From assembly GCA_000004985.1 (NCBI GenBank), contig GG738902.1: a DNA stretch of 64,000 bases; one strand, given 5' to 3'. The DNA comes from Naegleria gruberi. Its lineage: Eukaryota. The translations under genes were made by a program, and so were the position numbers. Below the pieces are notes generated by a model. That model made no database searches and was not told the origin of the DNA. It worked only from the letters and a program-made list of their open reading frames with translations. Positions 6,029-64,000 of this stretch are shown here, piece after piece (the stretch's first letter is position 1; the number at the start of each line of letters is the position of its first letter).

Positions 6029-7348
6029 ATGACTGAACAACAAACAGTGTTAATTGATGATCTTCAATTAATTTCAAATCAATTTCCATGTGGTGATATT
6101 CTTTGGGAAATTTTATCATTTTGTAATGATTTTACATTTATTGTAATGAATTGTGCACTAGTTTCCAAACAGTGGTACCATGTCATTTTGGAAAGATGTA
6201 AACTCTCATTAACCTGCAATTCGGATCAGAAATTGAAGGGAAAATTTCTTGAAAGAGTTTCAAATTTCACAGTTAAAAAGAATGAAGAAGGAAATTTGTT
6301 TAATTGTCAAATTTTTGAATGTTTGAAGAATTTGACAAGAATTGATATCAGTGATAATGAAATTAGCGATGAAAGGGTTAAGCATTTTGGTAATTTGACT
6401 CATTTGACAAATCTTGTAATTAATTGTAACGACATTGGTGTAGAGGGAGCTAAATGTCTTTGTCAACTGAATCAATTAACAAGGCTTAATATTGGAAACA
6501 ACAGTCTTGAGACTGAAGGTGCTAAATACATTAGTGAACTGAAGAATTTGACCAAACTTGATATCGCTCGCAACTGTATTGGTGATAGAGGTGCTCAATT
6601 TATTACTGAAATGAAACAACTGACTTCTCTAAACCTTAACAGGAATGGAATTGAATATTTAGGAGCAAAATTTATTAGTGAAATGTATCAATTAACGAGT
6701 CTTGATATCAGTAACAATGACATTGGTTCTGAAGGAGCTAAACAAATTAGCAAACTCGACCAATTGACCAAACTATATATTTACGATAATAATATTGGTG
6801 ATGAAGGAGCTATGCACATTAGCGAAATGAAACAACTAACTAATCTCGATATTAGCAGGAATGATATTGACTCAGAAGGTGCCAAATCCATATGTGAACT
6901 CTATCAATTAACAAATCTCAATATTTGTTCGAATTACATTGGTGAAACAGGTGCCAAGCATATCAGTGAAATGAATAATTTGACCATTCTTGAAATTGGC
7001 AGTAATGAAATTGGATCTGAAGGAGCGTATCATATCAGCAGAATGCACCAATTGACTAGGCTCATGATTTTTGCTAATGATATTGGAGAAAAAGGGGCCA
7101 AACATGTTTCTGAGATGAAACAATTAACTAAACTCGATATTTATGATAATAATATTGGTGATGAGGGAACTATACACATTAGCGAAATGAAACAATTAAC
7201 CTACCTCGATGTTTCAGCCAATAATATTGGTCACGAAGGTGCTGAATATATTAGGAAATTGAATCGATTGACATTTCTTAATGTTCACTATAATTCATTC
7301 AGTGATAGTGAATCAGAACTTATAGAAAAGGAGTTAATGAAGGATTAA
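6029..7348 (+). CDS. F-box / RNI-like leucine-rich-repeat protein (about 13 repeats of 24 aa).
   Basis: The N-terminus is F-box-like (DILWEILSFCNDFTFIVMNCALVSKQWYHVI). It is followed by regular repeats of the form L(T)xLxIxxNxIGxEGAKxISEMKQ. Confidence 0.75.
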   Translation: MTEQQTVLIDDLQLISNQFPCGDILWEILSFCNDFTFIVMNCALVSKQWYHVILERCKLSLTCNSDQKLKGKFLERVSNFTVKKNEEGNLFNCQIFECLKNLTRIDISDNEISDERVKHFGNLTHLTNLVINCNDIGVEGAKCLCQLNQLTRLNIGNNSLETEGAKYISELKNLTKLDIARNCIGDRGAQFITEMKQLTSLNLNRNGIEYLGAKFISEMYQLTSLDISNNDIGSEGAKQISKLDQLTKLYIYDNNIGDEGAMHISEMKQLTNLDISRNDIDSEGAKSICELYQLTNLNICSNYIGETGAKHISEMNNLTILEIGSNEIGSEGAYHISRMHQLTRLMIFANDIGEKGAKHVSEMKQLTKLDIYDNNIGDEGTIHISEMKQLTYLDVSANNIGHEGAEYIRKLNRLTFLNVHYNSFSDSESELIEKELMKD

Positions 7349-7564: not shown

Positions 7565-8647
7565 ATGAACAATTACGATGTAAGTTTCGTCTACCAACCA
7601 TCTCATCATCCAACATGATTTCATCATCTCATCCACAGTTCGATTCCATCAACAAGGAAAGCAAAAAACAAGTGTAAGTTCAAATTTGAATCACAAGTCC
7701 AATATAATGTTGAAATAATATTCACAAACAGTGCTTGTCGTATCGTTGTCGGTGTTTGCATCCTTGGTTGCTGTATCTTTGCTGTCATTGCTGCTGTCGT
7801 CTTGGCTGCAGTCTTCTTCCCAAGAAGTCCAAATATTGTTAGTCAGTATGTATATATATATTAGAATCATTCATCATTCTCATCATCATATTTTGTTGTT
7901 GATTGGAATATCATCATCTTTATCGGAATGATATTAGACAATTGTATTTTACTCAATTTTCAGTGGATTTTTGTCCTGCTCAAAGTAAGAGCAATAATTC
8001 GGCATGTTGTGTTGGAAGTTCGTGTACCTTTTCCTATAATAATGCAACATTGGGTATTGCTTCGTATTTTGTGGTGCGAGCTACGAATGGTAACTTGTTT
8101 AATATATCATTGAATGCGTAGGTTTTATGATAATTTGATGATGAAATATTAATTCTTGATGGATGATGATGGTGTGGATTTTATGTATTGATGTGATAAT
8201 TGATGATTTTAGAGTCAAGATTGAAATCATGTATGGATCGGAAGTGATCGGTTCGAGTGCTTCGGAGAGTTATCCTGTTGGTCCACAAACTACTCAAGGT
8301 TTGTACTCATTGAAAATTACTTTATTCCTTAATTAATTAATTAATTCAATTTAAATTTAATAATTTTATTTGAAAATACAAATAATAATGTGGAATGAAA
8401 TGTAGATGTTAATGTACCAATTATATGGAAATCTTCTCTGAGTAGTAATGTAATGAAATCAATCATGTGCCAACTCACAGGTAATAACAATGCCTTACCT
8501 TATACATTCACGTTAAGTATGGGTTCAGTGACTTACTTCCTCAATACATTTGCATTCTCAAGTCAAACAGCAAGTCTTCAAGCTTCCATAGATGTTTGCT
8601 CATCCAATTGTAAAGTACAATACTACTCTTCAATGTGTCCAACCTAA
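7565..8647 (+). CDS. Six-exon gene for a type-II single-pass membrane protein with a LEA_2 / NDR1-HIN1-like (WHy) ectodomain (tentative). Exons: 7565..7579, 7639..7673, 7732..7841, 7964..8117, 8210..8306 and 8409..8647.
   Basis: All five introns are GT..AG: GTAAGT at 7580, GTAAGT at 7674, GTCAGT at 7842, GTAGGT at 8118 and GTTTGT at 8307. The exon phases chain without stops to give MNNYD-FDSINKESKKQ-V-ACRIVVGVCILGCCIFAVIAAVVLAAVFFPRSPNIV-MDFCPAQ...LNA-AVKIEIMYGSEVIG...-DVNVPIIW...SSMCPT*. A TM helix followed by FFPRSPNIVMD resembles the LEA_2 start (FRPKDPSFSVD). The 15-nt first exon is followed directly by GTAAGT. Confidence 0.45.
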
Positions 8648-9065: not shown

Positions 9066-12000
9066 ATGGGTTGCGGAAATTCAAAATCAACACTCGGTGT
9101 AGTTGAGACCGTCGAAGAAAAACCAAAACAACAAGCCACTGTCAATAACACCACTAATACTACCACTGCTGTCATGACAGGAACACTTGAACCAGAGGCA
9201 CCAAAGAAGAAGGATGGTTTCTGTTACTTCTTTGGTCTTGACAGTCAAACTAAGGAAAACCTCACTGAAGGGAATAAGGATATGAAGGAACTACTTGGAG
9301 GAAAAGGTGCTAACTTGTGCGAAATGTGCAATTTAGGTATTAATGTTCCTCCTGGATTTACTGTTTCTACAGAAGCCTGTGAACACTTTAGCCAGCTTCA
9401 TAACCTTGCTACTTCAGCAGGAGAAGAAGGAGCTGAAAAAAAGAATCTCACTTTACCAGAAAACATTCAAACACAAGTCGACGAATATCTCAAAAAATTG
9501 GAACAAGCAACTGGAAAGAAATTTACCGATTCATATGAAAATGATACAGATAAGGTTCTCTTAATTTCTGTGAGATCAGGAGCTGCCATTTCAATGCCTG
9601 GAATGATGGACACTATTCTTAACCTTGGTATTTGTGACAAGAATATTACTCAACTCGTTAAAAACTTTGGTGGAAATGAAAAATTCGCTTGGGATTCATA
9701 TCGTAGTCTCGTTCAAATGTTCGGTGAAGTTGTCATGTCAGTCAAGCCAGAACATTTCGAAGACAATATCAAAAAGCAAAAGGAAAAGAGAGGTATTACT
9801 CATGATTCTGAATTGAATTTGGAAGAAATTCAACAAATCGTTCAAGATCACAAACTTACTATTTTCGAACAAACTGGAGGTGAAGACTTCCCACAAGATG
9901 TTCGTCAACAATTGTACAGAGCTATTATTGCTGTCTTTAACTCATGGCACAATAAGCGTGCTGTGCAATATAGAAAGATTCACAACATTACTGGTCTTAA
10001 GGGAACTGCTGTAAATATTCAATCCATGGTCTTTGGTAATGTTGATGAACGTTCATGTTCTGGTGTCTGTTTCAGTAGAAATCCTTCAACAGGTGAAAAT
10101 CTATTCTATGGTGAATATATGATTCAAGCACAAGGTGAAGCTATTGTTGCTGGTCAAAGAACTCCAGAAAAGATTGAAACCTTGGCTACTAACTTCCCAG
10201 AATGTAACACTAGTTTGAAGGAAATCAGTACCAAATTGGAAAAGCACTTTAAGGATGTCCAAGATATGGAATTCACAATTGAACAAAATACTCTCTATAT
10301 GTTGCAATGCAGAAATGGTAAAAAGACAATTCAAGCTTCTCTCAAGATTTACTGTGACATGATAGATGAAGGTCTTATCAATGAAAGAGAAGCCATCTCA
10401 AAGATTGATGCTACTCAACTCAACCAAATGCTCCATCCATTCTTGGATGATTCTGAAAAGGCTCATCACGAACCTTTGGCAACTGGTTTACCAGCAAGTC
10501 CTGGTGCTGTAGTTGGTAGAATTGCTTTCACCAGTGAACAAGCCATTAAAATGTCTGAAACCAGAAAGGAAGATGGTGATGTCATCTTGGTCAGAGAACA
10601 AACAAGCACTGAAGATTTGGCTGGTATGCATGCTTCTCAAGGTTTCTTGACTACTAATGGTGGTCTTACTTCTCATGCTGCTGTTGTTTCTCGTCAACAA
10701 GGTAAATGCTGTGTAAGTGGATGTAGCTTGCTTTATGTCACTAGTGAAGAATCTTGTACAATTAATGGAACCCTCTTTAATCAAGGTGATATTATTACTA
10801 TTGATGGTTCAACTGGTAATGTCTACGGTAAGGCTCTCAAGACAACTAGACCAGGTATTTCTCAACCTGACTTTGTCAGAATTATGGATATTGAAAAGAA
10901 GTACAGAACTATGAGTGTCTATGCTAACGCTGATACATCTGTCGATGCTCATAAGGCTGTTGAATTCGGTGCTGAAGGTATTGGATTGTGTAGAACTGAG
11001 CACATGTTCTTTGAAAAGACAAGAATAGTTGACATGAGAAGAATGATTGTTGCCTCCACCACAGAAAAGAGACAAGAAGCTATTAATGTTCTCAAAGATT
11101 ATCAACGTTCTGATTTCCTTTCCCTCTTCCATGCTATGGAAGGAAAGAAGGTCACTATTAGATTGTTAGATCCTCCACTTCACGAATTTTTACCAGAAGA
11201 TCCACAAGAAATTGAAGAATTGGCTTTGGCTCTTGGTGAATCTGTTAAGGATGTTACCCTTACTGTCTCTCAACTCAAGGAAAAGAATCCAATGTTGGGT
11301 CATCGTGGTTGTAGATTGGGTATTACCTTCCCCGAGATTACTCAAATGCAAGTTGAAGCCATTTTTGAAGCTGCTATTGATGCTACTCATAAGGGCGAAG
11401 TTGTTGTTGATATTATGGTTCCATTAGTTCAATCTGTTCAAGAACTTGTCAACCAAAAGGAAATTATTGAAAAAGTTGCTTCATCATTGTTTGCCAAGCA
11501 TGAAGACAGAAAATATCTCATTCATTACAGAGTTGGTTGTATGATTGAAACTCCAAGAGCTGTTTTGATGGCTAAAGAACTTGCTGGTGTTGCTGATTTC
11601 TTCAGTATTGGAAGTAATGACTTGACTCAAATGACCTTTGGTTTCAGTAGAGACGACAGTGGTAAATTCCTTAAATATTATCTCGAACGTGACTTGATTG
11701 AAAATGATCCATTCGAAGTTTTGGATACAGAAGGTGTTGGAAAGATTATTCAACTCACTGTCCAAACTGGTAGAGAAGCAAAGAATGGTTTGACTGTTGG
11801 TTTGTGCGGTGAACATGGTGGTGAATCTCACTCTGTTAAATTCTTGTACCAATGCGGTCTTTCATATGTCAGTTGTTCACCTTATAGAATTCCAATCGCT
11901 AGACTTTCTGCTGCTCAAGAATCTGTCAAGAATTGGAGAAATGTTATTTGTGTTAATGGTGGTCCAGGATCAGGAAAGGGCACACAATGTGCCAAACTTG

Positions 12001-23654: not shown

Positions 23655-26071
23655 TTACTCAAACTCCCTTGTAAATATTCCAGAAAGATCTTGTTCTGAT
23701 AAAAAGGAACTACTCTCCCAAAATAGTGGATTCTCAAATCCTGTAATACCAACAGACGAGTAGTCTTCTGGTTGAGTAGGTGTAACTTCAATATTCAGTT
23801 GTGTATTTAGTGGAATGTCAATAGGAGTAGGTTGTACACTCACAACACGTCTAACTCTTATCAGAGACAAGTATTGTTCCATGTCTGCAAGAAGGTCCTT
23901 AAAGAAAAGCTCAACAAACTTGTATCGTTTTTTCATCAAATTAAAAGCTCTCATATCCTTCTCAAGAATATCGAAATAATCAATTCCGTTATATCTGAAA
24001 TCTGTACTTTGGCTTGAAATTAGTGTTTTGACAATTTGTAAATGCACATTGGTTGCCTTGGCTACACAGACAAGAGTTTCTATAGGGAAGAGTGGAAACC
24101 AAGCATGTTGCGTTATTTCTGTAATTTCCAAAGCTGCCTTCTCCATAATATCCCTAACAGTTGGATTGTGTGATTTAGATAGAATTGAAATTCTCAGTGA
24201 GTTTGCAATTAGAGTAAATATTGGATCAACTAGTTCTTCATACTCAGGTCCTACAATTCACTTGTTCAGATATTTGTTTTATAATGAAACTTACCATATG
24301 AAAAACATGCAAGAGCAGGACTCTTTGTTGGAGTGTCTATCAATCCTTTGGCCACCTTTTTGATATTCTCCACACACATTTGGACAACACTCCAAATTTC
24401 AAAACAATTTTCACTATTAACTTCTCTAGTCACTACACCGATCCATTCCTCTGGAAATTTATCCATTGTAAAGAAGCTATAAATATCAGGCAATCTTCTG
24501 AGGAATTCTTTCAAGTCCAAACGATTCAAATCATCTCCCAATACATTGTTAAAATAAAATACAAGATTTTCCAAATTTCTCTCACAGTCTGTCATAGTAG
24601 CTCTCTTCTCCTCGCCACTGAGTTGCGTCTTGACATAGTACTGGAGAATTTGCATGTAGAATTTTGCATTTTCGTATCTTCCAACCCAGCCTTCATACGA
24701 GGCCAAATTACCATAAGTTGCTGCAATATGATAGCTTTGAATTTGGTCAAACATTTTAGAAAGTGCCTTTTTGGCTCTTTGAGCTGTCTTTTCTGCTAGC
24801 TCAGCGAGTCCATATCTACATTCACACAATGCTCTCACCGATAAGAAGAGAGGGAACATTTCCTTCTTGTTGCTCTTTTCTCCTTCGATATCATTTGGTG
24901 TTGTAATGTAATTTTCCAATTCTTCCTTGCTCACCAATGGACATCCATCACATGCAATATCAAAATAAAAGTCAATCACATTTCTCTTACTGAGATGACC
25001 AACTTCTTCCACATTATCACTATCGGAATCACTATTTTTTTCTGCAATATTATTGTTGGTGGTTGAATGGTATGGTTTGAATTTTGGATCATTCGAAACT
25101 ACACCATCCTTTGGTTTGAATGAGGTAACTCCTTTCTTTTTCTTTCTCTTCTTTTTTTCCTCAGTTCCCTTGATTGCATTCCTCTTTGATTCTCTATAAA
25201 TACATTCCACAGATCGTTGTGTACATGCTGTACAACATGGCAATTTCTTATCTGTAATATTATGGTGAATTTTAAAATCAACAAATAATAAAATACCTAC
25301 CACTATTAAGGATTTAAAATTAAAATGTTATTTAGATTATTTACATACCATTTTCTATTAAATAGTTAATAATATGAAGATTAAAAACACATACCGATGC
25401 TGCTTTCTACAAGGCTCACAGGCAATTGGAAAGAATTCAGTATTATCGTCTGTTGCAGCTGTTTGATTTGGTGAGCCAGTCTTTTCGTTACCTTCTGAAC
25501 CATTACTACTGCTACTACTCGATTGGCCATTAATAACATTAGTTGATAAATTAATATTTTGATTTGGAATAAATCCTCTATTATTATTTACAAAATTCAA
25601 ATATTCTTGTTGTCTTTGTTGGAAAAGCAATCCGAAACTGTTTGGATTCATTCCTCCCAATAATTGTTGCTGCATTAATATTTGTTGAAGACTTGGATTG
25701 TGATTATTCATCATTAATTGTTGATTTACAGGATTCATTGCAGGTTGTTGATTATTTACAGAAGAAATCGATGGATCTTGAACAGTTTCCCAACCAGAAG
25801 CAGAATTTCCTAAAGACTTTCCGAGTGATGATAAAAATCCACCATTATTTCCACTACTTGTATTATCATTACCTAAATTTGAAAGGAAATTCATTGATGA
25901 TCCACTATTACTATTATTCATCATCATCATATTATTCATCAATACATTATTCATCATCAACTGGTGCTGAGACGTTGCCGAATAGCTTTGATTATTACTA
26001 TTCATTTCAAACGTTTGTTTGGTGTTGTTATTTGTTGGTTCCGAGTTGTCTTGATGATTTAACGGACGCAT
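23655..26071 (-). CDS. Zn(II)2Cys6 zinc-cluster transcription factor, paralog A. It has at least 5 exons, including 6-nt and 2-nt micro-exons inside the Zn-cluster coding region. Poly-Asn/Met N-terminus.
   Basis: Exon 1 runs 26071..25395 and ends ...CEPCRKQH-cg. GT-AG mini-introns (40, 46 and 49 nt) flank the micro-exons AAAATG (25354..25349) and TG (25302..25301). The next exon starts at 25251. Joined, they give C-EP-C-RKQHRK-C-DKKLPC-C-TA-C-TQRSVE-C, a canonical C-x2-C-x6-C-x6-C-x2-C-x6-C. A further GTAAGT intron lies at about 24150-24265. The downstream domains are paralogous to gene B (FPLFPIETLVCVAKATNVHLQIVK..IDYFDILEKD). Confidence 0.65.
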
Positions 26072-26640
26072 TTTTTTCTTTTAGAATTTAAAATTTCCCG
26101 CTACAAAAATGTTAAACACTTCAAAATTGGAATTAAAATTTTGTAATATTGTACCAAATAAATATGTTTAATCAAATTCCATTCTTGTAATTCATATCCT
26201 TTTGTTGTACAGCTTCACCAAGTCAACCAATAGACAATATTTGAACGATTCCACTTATTTTTTTCTATCAGGAAAATGCTTGAACAGAATCCTCAAATAA
26301 TGATGAAGGAATGAGATCATAAATGAGTTTGAAGAATTGTCTTTCCACTCAGTATCATCATGTTATCAATACTGAGATCAACATGCTTAGTAGAGGTGGA
26401 GAATAATAAAATTGAAATACCAGCAGCACTTTGGAGGACCTCCATTCGATTCTTGCTCCAATCGTGCTCTTTTTTGTCTCTTGTTCTCAATTATCAATGT
26501 GCGCTCAATTTCCGACGCAAGAATCAAAAAAAAAAAAGACGTTTTCCGTTCGCTCGTCCGTGATGCTTTAGAAACAAGCAACAGATAACAACACTGTAAA
26601 AAAGAAGAATTTGTGGCGTTTTGAGAAAGAGAAGGAAAGA

Positions 26641-29207
26641 ATGAATTCGTCATCAACATCACCACAACAGGCTCCTCCTCAAGGCTTTGGAAGTTTTCCT
26701 TCCTCCCCTAACAATAACATGTATACACAGCCTCAGCAACAACAATATTCTTCCTATAATAATAGTTTAAATAGTAGTAATAGTACTAATAACAACATGA
26801 TGATGATGAATAGTGTCCACCATCATCAGCCTCTTCCTTCATCTCCTTATAATCAACATCATCATGTGGCATCTCAATCAAACACCTCACAACAGCAACA
26901 GTATTATGATAATAACAATAATTATCAGGAATATAATAGACCACCGAATAATAATAACATGAATCATTCATCATCGATGAATAATGGTACGATGATTTCA
27001 CTTCCTAGTCAAAATTCCTCCTATCAGACGTCACCATCACAATATGGCAACAGTAATAACAATAACTTTATTTATAATATTCCACCACCATCCACACCAC
27101 AGCAACCACCACCTCAACAAAATTATCATAATGGAATGCAAGGAATGAGTAGTAGTTCATATCAATTTGCGAATAGTAATGGAATGCACAATAGAATGAA
27201 TAATCAAAATGTGTCACCACCCATGAATCAACAACAAAATCTCGAATCAAGTCCAGAAGAAAATTCGTCATCACCAAATGCTGAGCAATTGGGAAATTCG
27301 GATTTTCATCCCATCGCCTGTATAAATTGCAGAAAGCAACACAAACAATGGTAAGTTTAGTTATATTTGGAATTAAATCGATAACATTTTATAGTGGTAA
27401 GTATTAAATAAGAGAAATTGATTATTTAATGTTTCGGATATATAATTTAAACCTATCAGATAAGAAATTACCAAGTTGTCAACGATGTATTTCGAAAGGT
27501 ATAACTTGTGAATATAAAACGCCTAGAAGAATGAGATATCCAAATCAGTCGAAACAAAAACAACAGCAACAGTCAACTGAGGAACAGCAACAATCAGAAC
27601 CAAAGAAGAAGAAAAAGAAAACCGACTCGAAAGATAACCTAACACCAAAATCAAACTCTCCTCTCGATCCAGAAAATGTTTGTGCTCCAAATACAACTCT
27701 CACTAGCAGATTCCCTCAAACTCTCTCAAAAAAGAATATTATTGATATTTATTATAGCATGATATGCGATCACTTTATATTTATTGAAAAACCAGTATTG
27801 GAAAAGTATATTCTTTCCAAGAGTAATAGTGAAGATGTGGATGATTCAGAATTACCACTCAAGAAGGAAATGCAGACATTCTTCTTCTCTGTGACAGCAC
27901 TAGTGGAACAACGTATGGGAATGGGAGATTTATCTGAAAAATCAGCAAAGAAGGCTAGAGATTGTCTTTCTAAACTTTTTGATGAAATGAATAACTTTGT
28001 AGTTGCCTGTTCGTATGCAAATTTGGGATCATATGAGATTGGATCAGGACGAGTCAAACTATCCAGGTTCTATTTCCATAATGCCAAGTTTTACTTTGAA
28101 AGTTTGGACGATTCTGAAAAGTCAAGGTTATCAGAGCATGAAAAGGCTCTCCAAAAATACTTGACATCAGTGGAAATTGTAAATGCAGATAATGATCTAG
28201 GAATTTCAGCCATGATACATGACATGCCAAAAGTTTTTCATTTCACCACAGGACATCACTTACCTCAAGAAATTGTTAAAGCAACTCAACAAGAGGTCAG
28301 TCCTTCGAATTGTTTGGACTATCTCAAGATTGTGGAAATGATTGCCTCGTACTTGAACAAGTATTTCAGAGGTATGGCCACTAAAACTAGAGGAGAAAAG
28401 GAAATGGAAATGTATGACAAGGGTAGTAATCTCTGCCAAGGTTTACTAATGAACGGATTACGTGTAGGTGTCTTGACTAAGGCAGGGTATGGCAAGGATC
28501 TTATTGAAGAGTCTTCTTTGAGAATTACGTATGCGTCCGAGAGTGAATTTTTTCCATTCCTTCCTGTTATTGTAATTCCACACGTTGCTCTCGCTGCCCG
28601 TATTCACTTACAAATTGTAAAAAAGATTGAAAATGGTACCAGACAAAATCATCAGAAAGGGCTCACTTTCCAAAATACCGTTGGACCTATTGATTATTTT
28701 GATATTCTGGCAAAAGATTACAGATCACTCATTATTCTCTCTAAAAGATTTAAGAGAGTGTCGGTATGTTACGGTTCTCTCCTTGATGAAATTAAAGAGA
28801 TTTTAGGTAGGAGAGTTGAAGCTCAGCAAAACAACGACACCACCTCGACAAATAACTCTAATACTGTTACTACCCCAATTGCAGATGATGCACTCTTACA
28901 GCCACTTTCCTTAGACTCTTCCAGCCTGCCTCCACTGTCCTTCCTTCTAGGTTCTATGAATGATAATCCTTCACTACCTCAATCTTCAAGCTCTCAAAAA
29001 TCAACCCTTGATGGATATGCTTCCAACAATTTACAACAAAGCATTTTCAATTCAATAATTCAATCTCCAATCAAATCACCCTCACAACAACAAGAGTTGT
29101 ACTTTGCTGATCCATTCTTTACACACGAAGATTTACAACAAATATTTTCTCCACATACGTATGGCGATTTTGAGGATGTATCAGAATATAGTTTTAATGT
29201 GAAATAA
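26641..29207 (+). CDS. Zn(II)2Cys6 zinc-cluster transcription factor, paralog B. It is divergent (head to head) with A. Exons: 26641..27350, a micro-exon at 27395..27396 (TG), and 27459..29207.
   Basis: Exon 1 ends CINCRKQHKQ-tg|GTAAGT. The unit TAG|TG|GTAAGT is conserved with gene A. Exon 3 starts at ATAAG after CCTATCAG. Joined, they give C-IN-C-RKQHKQ-C-DKKLPS-C-QR-C-ISKGIT-C. The middle and C-terminal regions align with A and C. The ORF-track start at 26611 is TTG; the ATG is at 26641. Confidence 0.65.
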
Positions 29208-29555
29208 ATTAGTTCCTTTCCCATATAATATCTCTATTGTTCTTCCACGTATTTGGCTACATATTCAGGATAGCATGGCAATCTATCTCCTAGCATAACG
29301 TGGTGATTACCAGTTTGAGTTTCAGCTGTTGGTTCAAAGACTGGTTCCAAAGGCTTTTCCACAAATACTTCGTGATCTTTCTTAACTGGTAATTCTTCCT
29401 TCTTTTCTTCAACAACTGGTGTTTCTGTAATTGTTTCTTCCTTCTTTTCTTCAACTGGTGCTTCTACAACTTGAGTAGTTTCCACAGAAATTGGTGGTAC
29501 TTGTTCAATTGAACAAATAAATGGAATTGTTTCTTGAATTAACTTTTTACAATTT

Positions 29556-31460
29556 TCAACTTGATAATTCAATCAGGTAAATTCCAATTTGAACTTTTTT
29601 AGGAATAAATTGTTGTAATTCAACAGTTTCGTTTCCAAGGCTCTCCATGATTTTTCTTAATAATTCATAAATTTCAATAATTTCACTTAATTCATCCTTA
29701 TTTAACAATTGAATGTCAGTTAAATATTCTTGATTCAAATATGTTTTGATAAATTCATCCAATACTATTAACTTCTCTTCCAATTCTTGAATATATTTGG
29801 TCAATTTCATTAAAAAATTCTCCGATTTAATGCTTTCTACCATACAAGTCATGTTTAACTTTAGTTCATCAACTTGTGAACTTTCTTGTTCAAGTTTCAA
29901 TTCATTAGCATGTTCAAAACAATTCTTTAACTTTTCACAAATTTCCAAATATTCTTTTTGAAATTCATTTTCTAATACAGTACATAAAACCTTAATTGCA
30001 TTGATTTGTGAATTGGATTGAGTTTCTTCTTGTCTTTCAATATTTGTTTCTTGTGTTTCGTCTTGTTCTTTAATATTTTCGTCTTGTTTTTCGAGAGTTT
30101 CTTGATTTTCATCATGTTTTTCCTCTTGTTGTTCGAGAGTTTCTTGGTTTTCATCATGTTTTTCAAGTGGTTCTTGTTTTTCAAGAATTTCTTTCTTAAT
30201 TTTATCTTTTTCAACTTTTTCATTCAATTCCTTCTTAATTTTGGAAATTTCCTTTCCGTTGACTTTCCATAAATTGTTAATTTTAATATTTGGTGATTGA
30301 AGTAATAATTTAACAATTTCTAAACGTCCTTTTTCACATGCAATATGTAATGGAGACTAATAAATATTTAAAAATGTTGTAATTATTATTACTTACTTCC
30401 TATTATGGTAATGTTTAAAATAAGTATTAAATACAAACCATCTAAATAATAATGTAAAATATTTTAAATATTTAATTCTTACATGCTACGAGGAAATAAT
30501 TAATAAATTAATTATTAATTTACATACTTCCTAAAATAGATAAATAATTTAATTGGTTAATTACTCACTTTCTAATAACAAAGTTGGCAAATTAATTTCA
30601 ATATTTAATAATACTAACTTCCTATTAAAAAAATTAATATTAAATATTAAAAATACTAACAATCTAAAAAAATGTAAATATTTAAAATTGTTTAAAAACT
30701 TACAACTCTCTAAAACAAATATACACGTAATTTAATTAGTAGAGACTTACTTGCTAATAAAAATATTAATTTAAGATTATATTACTTAAATTACATACTT
30801 CCTAATAAGGAACTTGTTCATAAATAAAGAATTTAATACTTACTCCCTAATAATATTAACATTAAATAGTTATAAGTGAAATACTAACTTTCTAATAAAT
30901 TATTTTATAAATAACTAAGTATTAAATACTTACATGCTAATAAAATGCTAATTTAATACAAAATTACCAAATTTAGAATACTTACATACTAAAAATAGTA
31001 TTATTTTTATATTTTTTAATATTAAATTACTTACAGTCTGAAAATATTATTATTACAATGCTAGCAACACTTACAAACTAATAGCATTAAATATAAATAA
31101 TTAATTATTCAATTCCTTACATACTAATTAATTATTTAGTATTTTACAATATTTCCTTAAATACTTACTTTCTACAATCATACCCATTTAGATCTTATTA
31201 AACAATTGATATTCTACTCACATACTACTCAATTTTAAATATTTATAATGTTAATATTAAATAGTACTTACTCCCTTATTCACATCAAGTCCTCCACAAT
31301 TCAACAATAACTTGACAATTTCCAAATGTCCCCTCTCACAAGCCATGTACAACAATGTCTTATTCCGATCAGATTCATTTACCTTCGTTGGCTTGAAATA
31401 CTTTTTAAACTCGGCAACGTTTCCACTATTTGCAGCATCTACAAGATGAGGAGAGAGCAT
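29556..31460 (-). CDS. Ankyrin-repeat protein with a long Glu/Lys-rich coiled-coil C-terminus. The first coding exon is 31460..31272, the last is 30356..29556, and about 915 bp of intron between them carries the tandem splice-site array.
   Basis: The ATG is in an A-rich context. Exon 1 is MLSPHLVDAANSG...TLLYMACERGHLEIVKLLLNCGGLDVNKG|GTAAGT, an ANK repeat ending in phase 0. The last exon is TTAG|SPLHIACEKGRLEIVKLLLQSPNIKIN..., the second ANK repeat entering in phase 0, followed by an E/K-rich helical region. The downstream ORF 29234..29572 (-1 frame; PVEEKKEE repeats) may be a continuation across a frameshift or an unrecognised intron. Confidence 0.6.
30380..31240 (-). repeat. Tandem array of about 20 diverged ~45-bp units, each carrying (on the minus strand) a 3' splice site YTAG, then 3 nt (6 nt in one unit), then a consensus 5' splice site GTAAGT / GTATGT / GTGAGT.
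   Basis: On the plus strand the recurring core is aaTACTTAC-NNN-CTAATAA. On the minus strand the units read TAATAG|GAA|GTAAGT, CGTAG|CAT|GTAAGA, TTTTAG|GAA|GTATGT, TTAG|AAA|GTGAGT and so on. All inter-signal spacers are multiples of 3 and none is a stop codon. Confidence 0.7.
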
Positions 31461-51615: not shown

Positions 51616-53314
51616 ATGTCCAACAATAATACTGCAGTGCCTCCCTCATCACCGGTAGTTGAGGATGGTGACGACGAATTGAACTTATCTTCCATTTCCT
51701 GTGAATCGTGCAGACGCGCTCACAAACGTTGTGATCGTCTCCTTCCATCGTGTTCTAAATGTCTCTCTAAGAAAATTGAGTGTAATGTAAGAATATTACA
51801 AAAATGATTCAAATATTTAATGCCGATAATTATATATTGACACAATAGTATGTGGAACCTAAAAAAAGAGGAAAGGCCTCCGAAGCATATAAAAAGAATA
51901 AGAAACTAAAACAAGAAAAACCACAAGAGGTTGGACAAATTGTTGATTATTACTTTACATTTGTTAGTGCTGGACATCCAGTGATTTCCAAAGCCATATT
52001 GGAATATTTTATTGTGGAATACTTGTCACAGTTGGAGAATGGAGAGAATGTTGAGTTTAGCCCCAATGAATTTATTCACACACGAGAGGAATTGAATTAT
52101 TTACATTTATTTTTCTTATCTATCAAGTCAATTTATTATCAATTTACTTTTGAACAGCAATCAGCCAGTGAAGTGATGAAATTGTGTGAAAAACGGTTGG
52201 GAAAGTATTTGACACAATCATTTCATTTCTATATTTATGGAACATGTCAATTGATTGCTATTTATTATAGTGGAGTTGGAGATTTTGCAAAGGTTACTTT
52301 TTATGATGCTTTGGTGAATTTCTATATCCATCATTATGTTAAAAACACAGCAGATCAGTTTGAAAAGAACTTGGAAAGAAGAGCAGCTTTTTTTTGCCAA
52401 TACACAGGTGAATTGGAAACTGACGCCGTTTCATCATTTATTGAACGAGTACCTAAAATATTTGAGGTTTCAGTTGATCAAAAGTTGGAAAATTTACTAG
52501 TTCCAGGAGCCTTGGAGTATTTGAGGGTTGCTCCTGTCACCCTTCAAAACTATGAATTTTTCAAGCAGGTACTAGATTTTGTTTTCAAAGTGGTTGAACA
52601 ATTTAGAACGGAATTATGTAAAAAGATGCCAGATTGTATTTCAGATAGGTATATCAAGTATTCTGAGATGTGTAGAAACTTGATCTACTTTGGTTTTCAA
52701 ATGAGGTATTTGGTAAAGTTACCAAGTTTATCGAATGATTTAGAAGAGGTAGCTCTCAAGATTTCATGCCTTACAGAATCCGAATACTTCAAGTAAGTTT
52801 TTATTGGTTTGGAGATTTTCTAAACGAGAGAAATAGATGCTGCTCTGCTGAAATGATTGGAAGTGTGAGAAGTGCTGCAGAACTACATTTGGATATTTGC
52901 AAACAAATAGAAAATGGAATAAGGGAAAACAATTCACCACTTGTGACATCAACAGGAAAAGTGTTGAATATTGACTATTTCTCAATATTGGAAATGGATT
53001 TGAAAGCATTGACGTGTTTGGAAAGGAAATTCAAAAGAGTTTCAACTACCTGTGGAGAAATGATCAAGCAAATTAATATTACATTACAGAACCATTATTC
53101 CAAACAGGCCAATGTACTATCGTCCACTGCCCAAGCACTTAGTTTACCTGCTCTTGTTGTCTCTCATCGAAATACCACTCCACAACTCAACGCCATTACT
53201 GAAGGTGATGATAAATGGATATCCTTGTTGAAATATCTTGAAGCCATCAAGCAAAGAATTGGAAATCAAACAGATGAGGACACCTTTTTAGATTTTGAAC
53301 AACTCCTCAGGTAA
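51616..53314 (+). CDS. Zn(II)2Cys6 zinc-cluster transcription factor, paralog C. Three exons: 51616..51789, 51849..52795 and 52855..53314.
   Basis: The Zn cluster CESCRRAHKRCDRLLPSCSKCLSKKIECN is intact in exon 1, followed by a GTAAGA intron and then a basic region (YVEPKKRGKASEAYKKNKK). A second GTAAGT intron is in phase 2 (ttcaa|gtaagt ... aatag|a). The C-terminal region (LDICKQIENG..NIDYFSILEMD..KRVSTTCG) is paralogous to genes A and B. Confidence 0.65.
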
Positions 53315-61016: not shown

Positions 61017-62068
61017 TATGACATGTAAGAATGTTACCTTTGATCAATTGGACCACTAGCTTGACAGATATCCCATTTATATAGATATTGATTTCTATCA
61101 CTCAGAAACGTTACCAATATCATTTATAAGAGTAGTGGTATGATATTCTATCTTGTTGTACTTCTTGGTATTGACTTGTCATATTGTCATGAGTAGTTGC
61201 TGACATGGTTAAATGACATGAAAAGTGAATGAAGTCCAAATGATATGAAATTGATAAGAACCTCATTATATGATGTTAATAACATATTGTATCAATTTGG
61301 TAATGAATCTCATTGTCCTTAGGGTACTTCCCTATTGAGGTACCTTAATTGACTATCTCAATATTTAATATGTGATATGATATTTATTTCAATTGTATCA
61401 TGTTATATATGTAATTTGAAGCATTTTGATATAAGTTTTGATATTTAAATATGATTTAATAGATATCATATATAGCAACTCTTAGTTTTTCAAAATTGAC
61501 TTTGAGATACTCTAATTGACCATATATATATGACCAATTAATGAAACTAATATCAATCGACTAGATTTTCAATTGTGAACACAATGGTATCAACAGTTAT
61601 ATGATTCATGATAGTTTAAAATTGCGTTGGTCATCTAAGGATAGGTCATTAAGGTTTGAATGAATTGATATGAAATTCAATACCAATTATTGATATACCA
61701 TGATTTATTGATCTATATATGATATTATAATTGAAATATTTTAAAATTAATATCATTTGACTATTTTGACATTCATAATTCTCATGATTACACTCCTGAC
61801 ATGTTGGATGATTTCATATTGTCTTGAAACTGATATACTAGTGTTTGTACACCACTAGTAAGGTACTGTATCAGTTTCATGATGATCTGTATAGTGGATG
61901 TAATTGTCACATCCCTGTAGGTGTCAAGTAGATCAGCCAAGTACCATGTATGATATGGATGATCTTCAAAATCAAATAGATATATTTAATTATCATGTAT
62001 AGATGTATTAGAAGTGAATTGAAGTGGAAAAGATTTCTATCTTCAGTGTTAGTATAGGTCAGTTGACA
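61017..62068. repeat. Subtelomeric duplicate B1 (1052 bp, essentially identical to B2). It is followed immediately by an interstitial telomere array.
   Basis: tatgacatgtaagaatgttacctttgatcaattggacc ... cttcagtgttagtataggtcagttgaca is present twice with the same length. Confidence 0.85.
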
Positions 62069-62212
62069 GGGTTTGGGTTTGGGTTTGGGTTTGGGTTTGG
62101 GTTTGGGTTTGGGTTTGGGTTTGGGTTTGGGTTTGGGTTTGGGTTTGGGTTGGGTTTGGGTTTGGGTTTGGGTTTGGGTTTGGGTTTGGGTTGGGTTTGG
62201 GTTTGGGTTTGG
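62069..62212 (+). repeat. Interstitial (TTTGGG)n telomere-repeat array (about 24 units), running into an N gap.
   Basis: Perfect gggttt hexamers with occasional gggtt variants; the G-rich strand is on the + strand. Confidence 0.9.
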
Positions 62213-62264: not shown

Positions 62265-63316
62265 TATGACATGTAAGAATGTTACCTTTGATCAATTGGA
62301 CCACTAGCTTGACAGATATCCCATTTATATAGATATTGATTTCTATCACTCAGAAACGTTACCAATATCATTTATAAGAGTAGTGGTATGATATTCTATC
62401 TTGTTGTACTTCTTGGTATTGACTTGTCATATTGTCATGAGTAGTTGCTGACATGGTTAAATGACATGAAAAGTGAATGAAGTCCAAATGATATGAAATT
62501 GATAAGAACCTCATTATATGATGTTAATAACATATTGTATCAATTTGGTAATGAATCTCATTGTCCTTAGGGTACTTCCCTATTGAGGTACCTTAATTGA
62601 CTATCTCAATATTTAATATGTGATATGATATTTATTTCAATTGTATCATGTTATATATGTAATTTGAAGCATTTTGATATAAGTTTTGATATTTAAATAT
62701 GATTTAATAGATATCATATATAGCAACTCTTAGTTTTTCAAAATTGACTTTGAGATACTCTAATTGACCATATATATATGACCAATTAATGAAACTAATA
62801 TCAATCGACTAGATTTTCAATTGTGAACACAATGGTATCAACAGTTATATGATTCATGATAGTTTAAAATTGCGTTGGTCATCTAAGGATAGGTCATTAA
62901 GGTTTGAATGAATTGATATGAAATTCAATACCAATTATTGATATACCATGATTTATTGATCTATATATGATATTATAATTGAAATATTTTAAAATTAATA
63001 TCATTTGACTATTTTGACATTCATAATTCTCATGATTACACTCCTGACATGTTGGATGATTTCATATTGTCTTGAAACTGATATACTAGTGTTTGTACAC
63101 CACTAGTAAGGTACTGTATCAGTTTCATGATGATCTGTATAGTGGATGTAATTGTCACATCCCTGTAGGTGTCAAGTAGATCAGCCAAGTACCATGTATG
63201 ATATGGATGATCTTCAAAATCAAATAGATATATTTAATTATCATGTATAGATGTATTAGAAGTGAATTGAAGTGGAAAAGATTTCTATCTTCAGTGTTAG
63301 TATAGGTCAGTTGACA
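62265..63316. repeat. Subtelomeric duplicate B2. Unlike B1 it continues into 314 bp of unique AT-rich DNA before the terminal telomere array.
   Basis: See B1. Confidence 0.85.
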
Positions 63317-63630
63317 AGTTGAATAGTAAACATCCTGAAATGATACCAAAGTATTTGAAATTGATATATATTGTTATTAACATGATTTAAAAGGTGATAT
63401 ATTGATTTGAAATGATTTTGAAATGTTTTCATTGATATTCTAATTGTCTAATCTATTATATGAAATTAACTTATATAAGTCATTATAATGATGTAATATT
63501 ATGTTATATTATGATTATATATTCAATTTGGAGTATATTGATATATAATATATTGATTTATAATGAGTATTTATTGAGATAATTAATTAAGAAGAATAAA
63601 AGTCAAAAGGTTGGGTCTGACCTTAGTCGT

Positions 63631-64000
63631 GGGTTTTGGTTTGGGTTTGGGTTTGGGTTTGGGTTTGGGTTTGGGTTGGGTTTGGGTTTGGGTTTGGGTT
63701 TGGGTTTGGGTTTGGGTTTGGGTTTGGGTTTGGGTTTGGGTTTGGGTTTGGGTTTGGGTTTGGGTTTGGGTTTGGGTTTGGGTTTGGGTTTGGGTTTGGG
63801 TGTTTGGGTTTGGGTTTGGGTTTGGGTTTGGGTTTGGGTTTGGGTTTGGGTTTGGGTTTGGGTTGGGTTTGGGTTTGGGTTTGGGTTTGGGTTTGGGTTT
63901 GGGTTTGGGTTTGGGTTTGGGTTTGGGTTTGGGTTTGGGTTTGGGTTTGGGTTTGGGTTTGGGTTTGGGTCCGGGTTTGGGTTTGGGTTTGGGTTTGGGT
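63631..64000 (+). repeat. Terminal telomere array (TTTGGG)n, about 60 units, with the G-rich strand running 5'->3' toward the window end. Variants: GGGTT (one T missing) several times, GGGTGTTTGGG near 63800, and GGGTCCGGGTTT near 63968.
   Basis: Uninterrupted hexamer array to the last base of the window, so this is the right-hand chromosome or contig end. Confidence 0.9.

What the first reader, a model, noticed from the sequence alone, without database searches (positions are those of the whole stretch)
25251..27458. Conserved 2-nt micro-exon (TG) splitting the third Cys codon of the Zn2Cys6 motif in both head-to-head paralogs; paralog A also needs a 6-nt micro-exon
In gene B, exon 1 ends ...CRKQHKQ + tg (27350, donor GTAAGT). 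The only way to reach DKKLPSCQRCISKGITC in frame with canonical signals is through TAG|TG|GTAAGT (27395..27396) and then CAG|ATAAG (27459). The result is caa tgT Gat aag: the micro-exon supplies the third base of Cys3 and the first base of Asp. The obvious single-intron alternative gives an immediate TGA.

Gene A, on the other strand, has the same TAG|TG|GTAGGT unit (25302..25301) plus an extra TAATAG|AAAATG|GTATGT micro-exon (25354..25349). Only with both included does one get the canonical C-x2-C-x6-C-x6-C-x2-C-x6-C (CEPCRKQHRKCDKKLPCCTACTQRSVEC). Two paralogs independently require the same 2-nt exon, flanked by strong splice signals, and both restore a textbook metal-binding motif. This is unlikely by chance. 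Two-nt exons are at the extreme lower limit reported for spliceosomal splicing.
Basis: partly seen in the sequence, partly recalled or inferred. Interest (0 to 1): 0.8.

Follow-up and report, generated by a model that had tools for sequence, protein, structure and literature searches.

The report
Two-base exon in Naegleria zinc-cluster genes
Two neighbouring Naegleria gruberi transcription-factor genes can only encode their zinc-binding motif if a two-base exon (TG) between two very short introns is spliced in; this is very probably real, but it is a rare example of a known phenomenon rather than a new one.

Summary
The window is Naegleria gruberi. The sequence observation is correct; the only slip is that exon 3 of gene B starts at 27460, not 27459.

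- **Only one splice path works.** Among all canonical splice paths, only the TG path (27395..27396) in gene B reproduces the residues found in the N. fowleri and N. lovaniensis orthologues. The same holds for AAAATG (25354..25349) plus TG (25302..25301) in gene A. These paths also give the best Pfam Zn_clus scores.
- **The signal is not chance.** The signature YAG-TG-GTRNGT occurs exactly twice in 128 kb of both strands, at these two sites.
- **Partly in public annotation.** The public model of gene A (XP_002671912.1) already contains both micro-exons. The public model of gene B is truncated and lacks the zinc cluster.
- **Not conserved across the genus.** The A orthologues have no intron here. 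N. fowleri B has a 12-nt micro-exon and N. lovaniensis B has one intron. That makes five intron positions within 13 nt.
- **No transcript data.** None could be reached with these tools.
- **Precedent exists.** One-nucleotide exons are published for Arabidopsis and Fusarium, so this is a new member of a known kind.
- **Side finding.** The neighbouring ankyrin gene (31271..30357, minus strand) has 20 chained mini-introns separated by 3-nt spacers. It may be the more remarkable locus.

The parts
26641..27350 (+). Gene B exon 1: Q/N-rich N-terminus plus the first half of the Zn2Cys6 cluster (CINCRKQHKQ + tg)
   Evidence: N. fowleri P0005 has the same architecture.
27351..27394 (+). Gene B mini-intron 1 (44 nt, GTAAGT...TATAG). 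Candidate branch site gaTAAC lies 10 nt from the 3' end.
   Evidence: No AG in the last 25 nt before the acceptor.
27395..27396 (+). Gene B 2-nt micro-exon TG: third base of the Cys3 codon plus first base of the Asp codon
27397..27459 (+). Gene B mini-intron 2 (63 nt, GTAAGT...ATCAG)
27460..29207 (+). Gene B exon 3: second half of the Zn cluster (at aag... DKKLPSCQRCISKGITC) and the conserved C-terminal domain, up to the stop codon
   Evidence: It is 67-69% identical to N. fowleri B. The public model P0001 starts only at MRYPNQ inside this exon.
25395..26071 (-). Gene A exon 1 (ends ...CEPCRKQH + cg). The public model also removes a doubtful 63-nt in-frame intron, 25973..25911.
25355..25394 (-). 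Gene A mini-intron 1 (40 nt, GTATGT...AATAG)
25349..25354 (-). Gene A 6-nt micro-exon AAAATG (completes Arg, encodes Lys, and supplies the first two bases of Cys3)
25303..25348 (-). Gene A mini-intron 2 (46 nt, GTATGT...AATAG)
25301..25302 (-). Gene A 2-nt micro-exon TG, at the same codon position as in gene B
25252..25300 (-). Gene A mini-intron 3 (49 nt, GTAGGT...TACAG)
24295..25251 (-). Gene A exon carrying the second half of the Zn cluster and the conserved domain
24251..24294 (-). Gene A further mini-intron (44 nt, GTAAGT...TGTAG), of the same size class
23655..24250 (-). Gene A last exon, including the stop codon
26072..26640 (.). 570-bp spacer between the two divergently transcribed paralogues (presumed shared promoter region; not analysed)

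Best explanation
**What it is**
- Genes A and B are two ancient paralogues encoding Gal4-type Zn(II)2Cys6 transcription factors of Naegleria gruberi.
- In both, the codon of the third zinc-binding cysteine is split by two AT-rich mini-introns that lie only two bases apart.
- The mature mRNA must therefore contain a 2-nt exon (TG). Gene A has a third mini-intron that also leaves a 6-nt exon (AAAATG).

**How it probably works (inferred, not shown)**
- Each 40-63-nt intron is recognised on its own by intron definition. Each has a strong GTAAGT, GTATGT or GTAGGT donor, a TAAC-like branch site, and no competing AG in the 25 nt before its acceptor.
- An acceptor AG and the next donor GT two bases apart cannot both be occupied at once. 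The neighbouring introns must therefore be removed one after the other, in the manner of recursive splicing but with 2 nt retained.
- Skipping the TG exon gives an immediate stop codon. Skipping the 6-nt exon of A would delete Lys-Cys3 in frame.

**Evolution**
- The arrangement is specific to the N. gruberi lineage.
- Orthologues in other Naegleria have different intron positions or none, so this short stretch has had fast intron turnover.
For: **Shown**
- Splice signals and reading frames are as described.
- The YAG-TG-GTRNGT signature occurs only at these two sites in the window, against 0.24 expected.
- The productive splice path is unique in both genes.
- That path gives the best PF00172 score, above the gathering cut-off of 21: 44.2 bits for B and 37.2 bits for A. 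The N. fowleri model that lacks QCDK gets no Zn_clus hit at all.
- A codon-by-codon alignment without gaps matches six genes from three Naegleria species plus a metagenomic relative.
- B is 67-69% identical to its N. fowleri orthologue over 475 aa, including the half-cluster at the very end of exon 1. That conservation only makes sense if exon 1 is joined in frame.
- N. fowleri B has a 12-nt micro-exon at the same place, and two public models include it.
- The flanking introns belong to the same 37-63-nt class as other predicted introns in the window.
- The last 25 nt of the five flanking introns contain 0 AG dinucleotides against 2.8 expected, P about 0.04.
- Exons of 1 nt, and an engineered 2-nt exon, are spliced in plants (PMC4674806).

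**Inferred only**
- Ordered, one-at-a-time splicing by intron definition.
Against: - No cDNA, EST or RNA-seq junction could be examined. Exact look-ups of the spliced products and their fragments found nothing.
- The TG exon is absent from the N. fowleri and N. lovaniensis orthologues.
- The public gene B model does not use it.
- The public gene A model may be a purely computational prediction. It also contains a doubtful 63-nt intron with a weak GTCTCA donor.
- Recognition of splice sites 2 nt apart has never been demonstrated in Naegleria.
Confidence: 0.82

Rival explanations
1. Mostly unproductive or regulated splicing. The first donor is usually joined to the last acceptor, skipping TG. 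This gives a premature stop and transcript decay, and the full zinc-cluster protein comes from only a minority of transcripts. In gene A, skipping the 6-nt exon would give a Cys3-less isoform.
For: - Skipping TG gives TGA TAA at once.
- Skipping AAAATG stays in frame and gives CRKQHRDKK, which scores only 21.8 bits for PF00172.
- One N. fowleri public model (P0002) skips the 12-nt exon in frame, while two others include it.
Against: - Every mini-intron has its own strong donor.
- No AG lies in the last 25 nt before each acceptor, so no competing AG sits near the presumed branch site and the proximal AG should be used.
- Both halves of the cluster are strongly conserved.
- The differing N. fowleri models may simply reflect prediction noise.
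Confidence: 0.1
2. The two loci are decaying or non-functional genes, and the apparent micro-exons are coincidental AG/GT pairs inside one larger intron.
For: - The public gene B model lacks the zinc cluster.
- No transcript evidence was found.
Against: - The ORFs are long and intact: 819 aa for B and 745 aa for A.
- Identity to the orthologue is 67-69%.
- The signature occurs only at these two sites, with 0.24 expected per 128 kb. The chance of it falling in both roughly 100-150-nt gaps is about 5e-8.
- The restored sequence equals that of the orthologues.
Confidence: 0.03
3. A sequence or assembly error, or a non-splicing repair mechanism (RNA editing or ribosomal frameshifting), accounts for the two missing bases.
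For: None beyond the oddity of a 2-nt exon.
Against: - The same structure is present in two diverged paralogues whose introns are unrelated in sequence.
- Both have perfect splice signals.
- A nearly identical environmental N. gruberi-like contig agrees with the assembly where the two overlap.
- Gene A would additionally need 6 nt restored.
Confidence: 0.02

Closest known systems
Single-nucleotide exon of Arabidopsis APC11 (Guo & Liu 2015, PMC4674806)
   Same: - A constitutive ultra-short exon flanked by canonical AG and GT.
- It is needed to keep the reading frame and was missed by annotation.
- That paper also showed that an engineered 2-nt (TT) exon is spliced correctly in Arabidopsis.
   Different: - The plant case was shown by cDNA sequencing and mutagenesis; here the evidence is comparative only.
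- The plant exon sits within what had been annotated as a single 422-nt intron. Here the flanking introns are only 40-63 nt.
- The Naegleria exon is present in two paralogues.
One-nucleotide exon of Fusarium CYP621A P450 genes (PMC12940212)
   Same: - A micro-exon inside a highly conserved protein motif.
- It was detected because the motif could not otherwise be assembled.
- It exposed mis-annotation by automatic pipelines.
   Different: - The Fusarium exon is conserved among orthologues and confirmed by SRA reads.
- The Naegleria TG exon is not shared by orthologues in other species and is not yet confirmed by reads.
2-5-nt internal micro-exons found computationally in Arabidopsis, Drosophila and human (Volfovsky, Haas & Salzberg 2003, as cited in PMC12940212)
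   Same: The same size class and the same detection logic.
   Different: - Those were found from cDNA-to-genome alignments.
- In the searched library, no paper pairs Naegleria with the term microexon or micro-exon except in unrelated passages.
12-nt micro-exon CAATGCGATAAG in the N. fowleri orthologue of gene B
   Same: - The same gene and the same four codons (Q-C-D-K) around Cys3.
- It is also flanked by two introns.
   Different: - Both introns are phase 0 and lie 5 nt further out on each side.
- N. lovaniensis has only the downstream one.
- Common descent of these introns with those of N. gruberi is unresolved.
Recursive (ratchet-point) splicing and fungal stwintrons
   Same: Abutting 3' and 5' splice signals that must be used one after the other.
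   Different: - Recursive sites and stwintrons leave no nucleotides in the mRNA.
- Here 2 nt are retained and are essential.
- Each intron has complete signals of its own.

Membership tests
Spliceosomal ultra-short micro-exon (3 nt or less) | Immediately flanked by a canonical acceptor (YAG) upstream and a canonical donor (GTRNGT) downstream | tested here: met
   TAG|TG|GTAAGT in B and TAG|TG|GTAGGT in A.
Spliceosomal ultra-short micro-exon (3 nt or less) | Needed to keep the reading frame and to restore a conserved protein sequence | tested here: met
   It is the only productive path among 25 (B) and 84 (A) candidates. It also matches the orthologues and gives the best Pfam score.
Spliceosomal ultra-short micro-exon (3 nt or less) | Present in the mature mRNA (cDNA or RNA-seq junctions) | not testable with these tools
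   No N. gruberi transcript data are in any collection I could reach. RNA-seq exists at ENA PRJEB23822 (PMC6142364).
Spliceosomal ultra-short micro-exon (3 nt or less) | Conserved in orthologues | tested here: not met
   It is shared by the two N. gruberi paralogues only. N. fowleri B has a 12-nt exon, N. lovaniensis B has one intron, and both A orthologues have none.
Zn(II)2Cys6 binuclear cluster domain (Pfam PF00172) | Six cysteines spaced C-x2-C-x6-C-x5-12-C-x2-C-x6-8-C | tested here: met
   CINCRKQHKQCDKKLPSCQRCISKGITC (B) and CEPCRKQHRKCDKKLPCCTACTQRSVEC (A).
Zn(II)2Cys6 binuclear cluster domain (Pfam PF00172) | Score above the Pfam gathering threshold (21 bits) over the whole profile | tested here: met
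   B scores 38.2-44.2 bits (profile positions 2-37 of 39). A scores 31.6-37.2 bits.
Zn(II)2Cys6 binuclear cluster domain (Pfam PF00172) | Binds two zinc ions and DNA | not testable with these tools
   Needs biochemistry.
Recursive splice site / stwintron | Acceptor and donor abut with no retained nucleotides, or an inner intron interrupts a splice signal of an outer one | tested here: not met
   Two nucleotides lie between the AG and the GT and are needed in the mRNA. Every intron has its own donor and acceptor.
Introner-like (transposon-derived) introns | Many near-identical intron copies | tested here: inconclusive
   The five flanking introns show no convincing similarity to each other. The 20 ankyrin mini-introns are only marginally more alike than shuffles: 0.058 against -0.004 +/- 0.013. 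Only 64 kb of the genome was available.

The most novel reading that the evidence does not exclude
N. gruberi may carry a lineage-specific class of AT-rich mini-introns (37-63 nt, GTAAGTAT...TTATTAG). These would have been gained or duplicated at extremely close spacing, leaving exons of 2-6 nt. On this reading, two features come from one process:
- the TG exon in the two zinc-cluster genes;
- the chain of 19 three-base spacers in the neighbouring ankyrin gene.

If so, Naegleria would be a natural system in which exon length is irrelevant to splice-site pairing. Intron gain, loss or sliding could also be followed at single-nucleotide resolution, since three species show five intron positions within 13 nt.
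Probability: 0.3. Interest if true: 0.75.

Novelty: new member of a known kind. Interest (0 to 1): 0.5.

Why it matters
- **Annotation.** It corrects the public model of gene B (XP_002671853.1, N-terminally truncated with no zinc cluster). That adds a full-length Zn2Cys6 factor of 819 aa to the N. gruberi catalogue.
- **Phylogenetic reach.** No earlier report of a 2-nt exon from an excavate turned up in the library searched here. If that holds, it would extend the known range of exon-size-independent splicing.
- **Evolution.** This short stretch of the gene family has gained, lost or shifted introns repeatedly within one genus. That makes it a good test case for models of intron gain and sliding.
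- **Practice.** Gene finders and RNA-seq aligners need micro-exon awareness for this genome.

Tried and rejected
- **Transcript evidence.** Exact look-ups of the public models, of the spliced B (819 aa) and A (745 aa) products, and of the exon-1 and exon-3 ORFs found nothing. They gave no contigs and no transcript-derived sequences.
- **More relatives.** The metagenome scan gave only an intron-less distant relative (L002) and a fungal-type gene (L003). The profile protein search found only N. gruberi, N. fowleri and N. lovaniensis.
- **Environmental contig.** A near-identical N. gruberi-like contig (L005) stops about 360 nt short of the micro-exon.
- **Recent gene conversion between A and B.** The introns are not alignable. 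Exon similarity around the TG (21 of 24 nt) is no higher than to N. fowleri B (20 of 24). This is not supported, but an ancient conversion is not excluded.
- **Single-intron and non-canonical alternatives.** All give a stop codon, or a Trp, or lose Cys3.
- **Scan for further single micro-exons in the window.** Only the B site came out clean.
- **Other scans.** Rfam and tRNA scans found nothing.
- **Literature.** The only papers holding both Naegleria and microexon or micro-exon use the terms in unrelated passages, and none holds both Naegleria and Zn2Cys6. The Naegleria-plus-introner hits were not opened.


Full report
**Identity of the window.** The large exon of the plus-strand gene is 100% identical to 'predicted protein [Naegleria gruberi]' (P0001, XP_002671853.1). 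It is 67% identical to an N. fowleri 'Zn(2)-C6 fungal-type domain-containing protein'. The window is AT-rich (about 33% GC). It ends in a telomere-like (GGGTTT)n array.

**Check of the observation.** I read 24000..29000 and rebuilt both gene models.

Gene B, plus strand:
- Exon 1 is 26641..27350 and ends aaa caa tg.
- Intron 1 is 27351..27394 (GTAAGT...TATAG, 44 nt).
- The micro-exon TG is 27395..27396.
- Intron 2 is 27397..27459 (GTAAGT...ATCAG, 63 nt).
- Exon 3 is 27460..29207.
- The product is 819 aa and contains CINCRKQHKQCDKKLPSCQRCISKGITC.

Gene A, minus strand:
- Exon 1 is 26071..25395.
- A 40-nt intron follows, then AAAATG (25354..25349).
- A 46-nt intron follows, then TG (25302..25301).
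- A 49-nt intron follows, then exon 25251..24295.
- A 44-nt intron follows, then exon 24250..23655.
- The product contains CEPCRKQHRKCDKKLPCCTACTQRSVEC.

The only slip in the finding is that exon 3 of B starts at 27460, not 27459. Joining 27350 directly to 27460 gives caa TGA TAA.

**Is it more than chance?** Four results say yes.
- YAGTGGTRNGT occurs exactly twice on both strands of the window, at the two proposed TG exons. Dinucleotide-preserving shuffles give 0.24 expected.
- I enumerated every GT/GC..AG path with up to three introns of at least 18 nt. B has 25 in-frame stop-free paths and A has 84.
- Scored against Pfam PF00172 (gathering cut-off 21 bits), the TG model of B reaches 44.2 bits, against 21.9-32.5 for the alternatives tested. 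The full model of A reaches 37.2 bits, against 21.8 when the 6-nt exon is skipped and 26.2-30.6 for other paths.
- The five flanking introns have no AG in their last 25 nt, against 2.8 expected (P about 0.04).

**Independent comparative evidence.** The gene pair also exists in N. fowleri (L001) and N. lovaniensis (L004), there in tandem rather than head-to-head.
- B is 69% identical to N. fowleri B and about 30% identical to either A. The duplication therefore predates the species split.
- The A orthologues encode ...CRKQHRKCSKHLPSC... in one uninterrupted exon. N. lovaniensis A has no intron at all.
- N. fowleri B reads cat aag|GTAAGT..68 nt..AAAAG|caa tgc gat aag|GTTAGT..187 nt..TTCAG|aaa ctc. 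That is a 12-nt micro-exon encoding QCDK, and two public models include it while a third skips it.
- N. lovaniensis B has only the downstream intron, after gac aag.
- An intron-less metagenomic relative (L002) reads HRKCDKKLPSC.

In the codon alignment, the spliced N. gruberi sequences match all of these without a gap. The half-cluster FHPIACINCRKQHKQ at the very end of N. gruberi exon 1 is conserved with N. fowleri. That only makes sense if exon 1 is joined in frame to DKKLPSC through one Cys codon. I regard this as the strongest available argument that the TG exon is used.

**What is already public.**
- The GenBank/JGI model of gene A (P0003, XP_002671912.1) is reproduced exactly by exons 26071..25974, 25910..25395, 25354..25349, 25302..25301, 25251..24295 and 24250..23655.
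- Both micro-exons of A are therefore already annotated. I cannot tell whether that model rests on ESTs. Its extra 63-nt intron has a weak GTCTCA donor and looks computational.
- The public gene B model starts at MRYPNQ and has no Zn_clus hit.
- The full 819-aa product is not in the 15-billion-protein collection.
- In the searched library, papers holding both Naegleria and microexon or micro-exon use the terms in unrelated passages, and none holds both Naegleria and Zn2Cys6.

**Mechanism.** The sequence anatomy is shown; the rest is inferred.
- All five introns are 40-63 nt and very AT-rich. They have GTAAGT, GTATGT or GTAGGT donors and TAG or CAG acceptors.
- By eye, three of them have TAAC-type candidate branch sites 10-28 nt upstream of the acceptor.
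- Other predicted introns in the window are of the same class: 44 nt at 24294..24251 and at 52793..52836, and 58 nt at 7674..7731.
- I infer that each mini-intron is paired across itself (intron definition), so exon length does not matter.
- An acceptor AG and the next donor GT two bases apart cannot be bound at the same time. The neighbours must therefore be removed one after the other.
- This resembles recursive splicing, except that 2 nt stay in the mRNA.
- Experimental precedent exists in plants. The 1-nt exon of APC11 is spliced correctly, and so is an engineered 2-nt replacement (PMC4674806).

**Evolution.** Relative to the Cys3 codon there are five intron positions within 13 nt:
- cg|a in N. 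gruberi A;
- aag|caa in N. fowleri B;
- tg|t in N. gruberi A and B;
- g|at in N. gruberi A and B;
- aag|aaa in N. fowleri B and N. lovaniensis B.

The shared TG exon of the two N. gruberi paralogues could have three origins:
- It could be ancestral and lost elsewhere. N. lovaniensis A is wholly intron-less, which fits wholesale intron loss.
- It could have spread by an old gene conversion.
- It could be a parallel gain.

The introns of A and B are not alignable. Exon similarity around the TG is unremarkable. The data therefore do not decide between these.

**Comparison with what is known.**
- One-nucleotide exons are published for Arabidopsis APC11 (PMC4674806) and Fusarium CYP621A (PMC12940212).
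- The latter paper cites Volfovsky et al. 2003 for 2-5-nt exons in Arabidopsis, Drosophila and human.
- A 2-nt exon is therefore rare but not at the absolute limit. This case is a new member of a known kind, from a lineage (Heterolobosea) where none has been described.
- It does not meet the definition of a recursive splice site or a stwintron, because nucleotides are retained. I found no evidence for introner-type repeats.

**Noticed while checking.**
- The neighbouring ankyrin-repeat gene on the minus strand runs from the ATG at 31460 to the stop at 29556. It is interrupted between ...DVNKG (31272) and SPLHIACEKG (30356) by 20 consecutive mini-introns.
- These are 37-50 nt long with 16.5% GC. 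All have intact GT..AG ends, with consensus GTAAGTAT...TTATTAG.
- They are separated by 19 spacers. Eighteen are exactly 3 nt and one is 6 nt. None is a stop codon, and together they encode YKYFTYHKGEQRVIEKEHME.
- The intron bodies differ in length and sequence, while the spacing and all 40 splice signals are intact. That argues for selection on splicing.
- The public model P0010 uses eleven of these tiny exons, nine of them 3 nt long.
- This supports the view that N. gruberi routinely handles micro-exons between mini-introns. It deserves its own study.

**Verdict.**
It lacks only transcript proof, which public RNA-seq (ENA PRJEB23822, PMC6142364) could supply with the diagnostic k-mers.
- Interest is moderate at 0.5. 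It is a well-supported curiosity with a useful annotation fix and an interesting pattern of intron turnover. It is partly present in GenBank already and has published precedents.

Noticed in passing
window 31271..30357, minus strand (gene from ATG 31460 to stop 29556): An ankyrin-repeat gene is interrupted by 20 chained mini-introns (37-50 nt, 16.5% GC, all GT..AG). They are separated by 19 spacers: eighteen of exactly 3 nt and one of 6 nt (TAT AAA TAT TTT ACT TAT CAT AAA GGA GAA CAA AGAGTT ATT GAA AAA GAA CAT ATG GAA), none a stop codon. The public model P0010 uses 11 of these tiny exons. This is either an array of 3-nt micro-exons, any subset of which stays in frame, or a composite intron. 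The library search found no description of such an array.
   Followed up: partly
window 63630..64000 and 62069..62212: A telomere-like (GGGTTT)n array of about 62 copies lies at the window end. An interstitial copy of 24 units is followed by an N gap. The flanking sequence 61900..62065 is repeated at about 63148..63315, which suggests a subtelomeric duplication or an assembly join.
   Followed up: no
window 25973..25911, minus strand: The public gene A model removes a 63-nt in-frame 'intron' (weak donor GTCTCA) from the Met/Asn-rich N-terminal region. It is probably a prediction artefact. Without it the protein is 745 aa rather than 724 aa.
   Followed up: partly
L001 (N. fowleri) 6706..6972, with proteins P0002, P0004 and P0005: Public N. 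fowleri models disagree. One skips the 12-nt micro-exon CAATGCGATAAG and so loses Cys3 and the Pfam Zn_clus hit. Two include it. This is either annotation noise or a real exon-skipping isoform.
   Followed up: partly
L001 about 10770..10810: The N. fowleri orthologue of gene A is split into two annotated genes by an apparent frameshift at ...FPYF/PVEIVAC.... It looks like a homopolymer error in the nanopore-based assembly.
   Followed up: no
window 23655..29207 compared with L001 6001..11218 and L004 5117..10133: The two paralogues are head-to-head in N. gruberi but in tandem (B then A, same strand) in N. fowleri and N. lovaniensis. One gene has therefore been inverted since the lineages split.
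   Followed up: no
L005 (ENA metagenome ERZ929261) compared with window 29234..29572: An environmental contig nearly identical in DNA to the window reads through ...LIYLNYQHQVENCKK.... The window has a stop (LIELSS*) there, followed by a separate ORF (MNYQVENCKK...). The ankyrin gene in the window probably continues to about 29234 through an unrecognised intron or a strain difference.
   Followed up: no
window 6722..7259: There is a 72-nt tandem repeat (7.5 copies, 64% matches) inside a leucine-rich-repeat-like coding region. A TAG|TCA|GTATGT site at 7840..7851 nearby could be another 3-nt exon.
   Followed up: no
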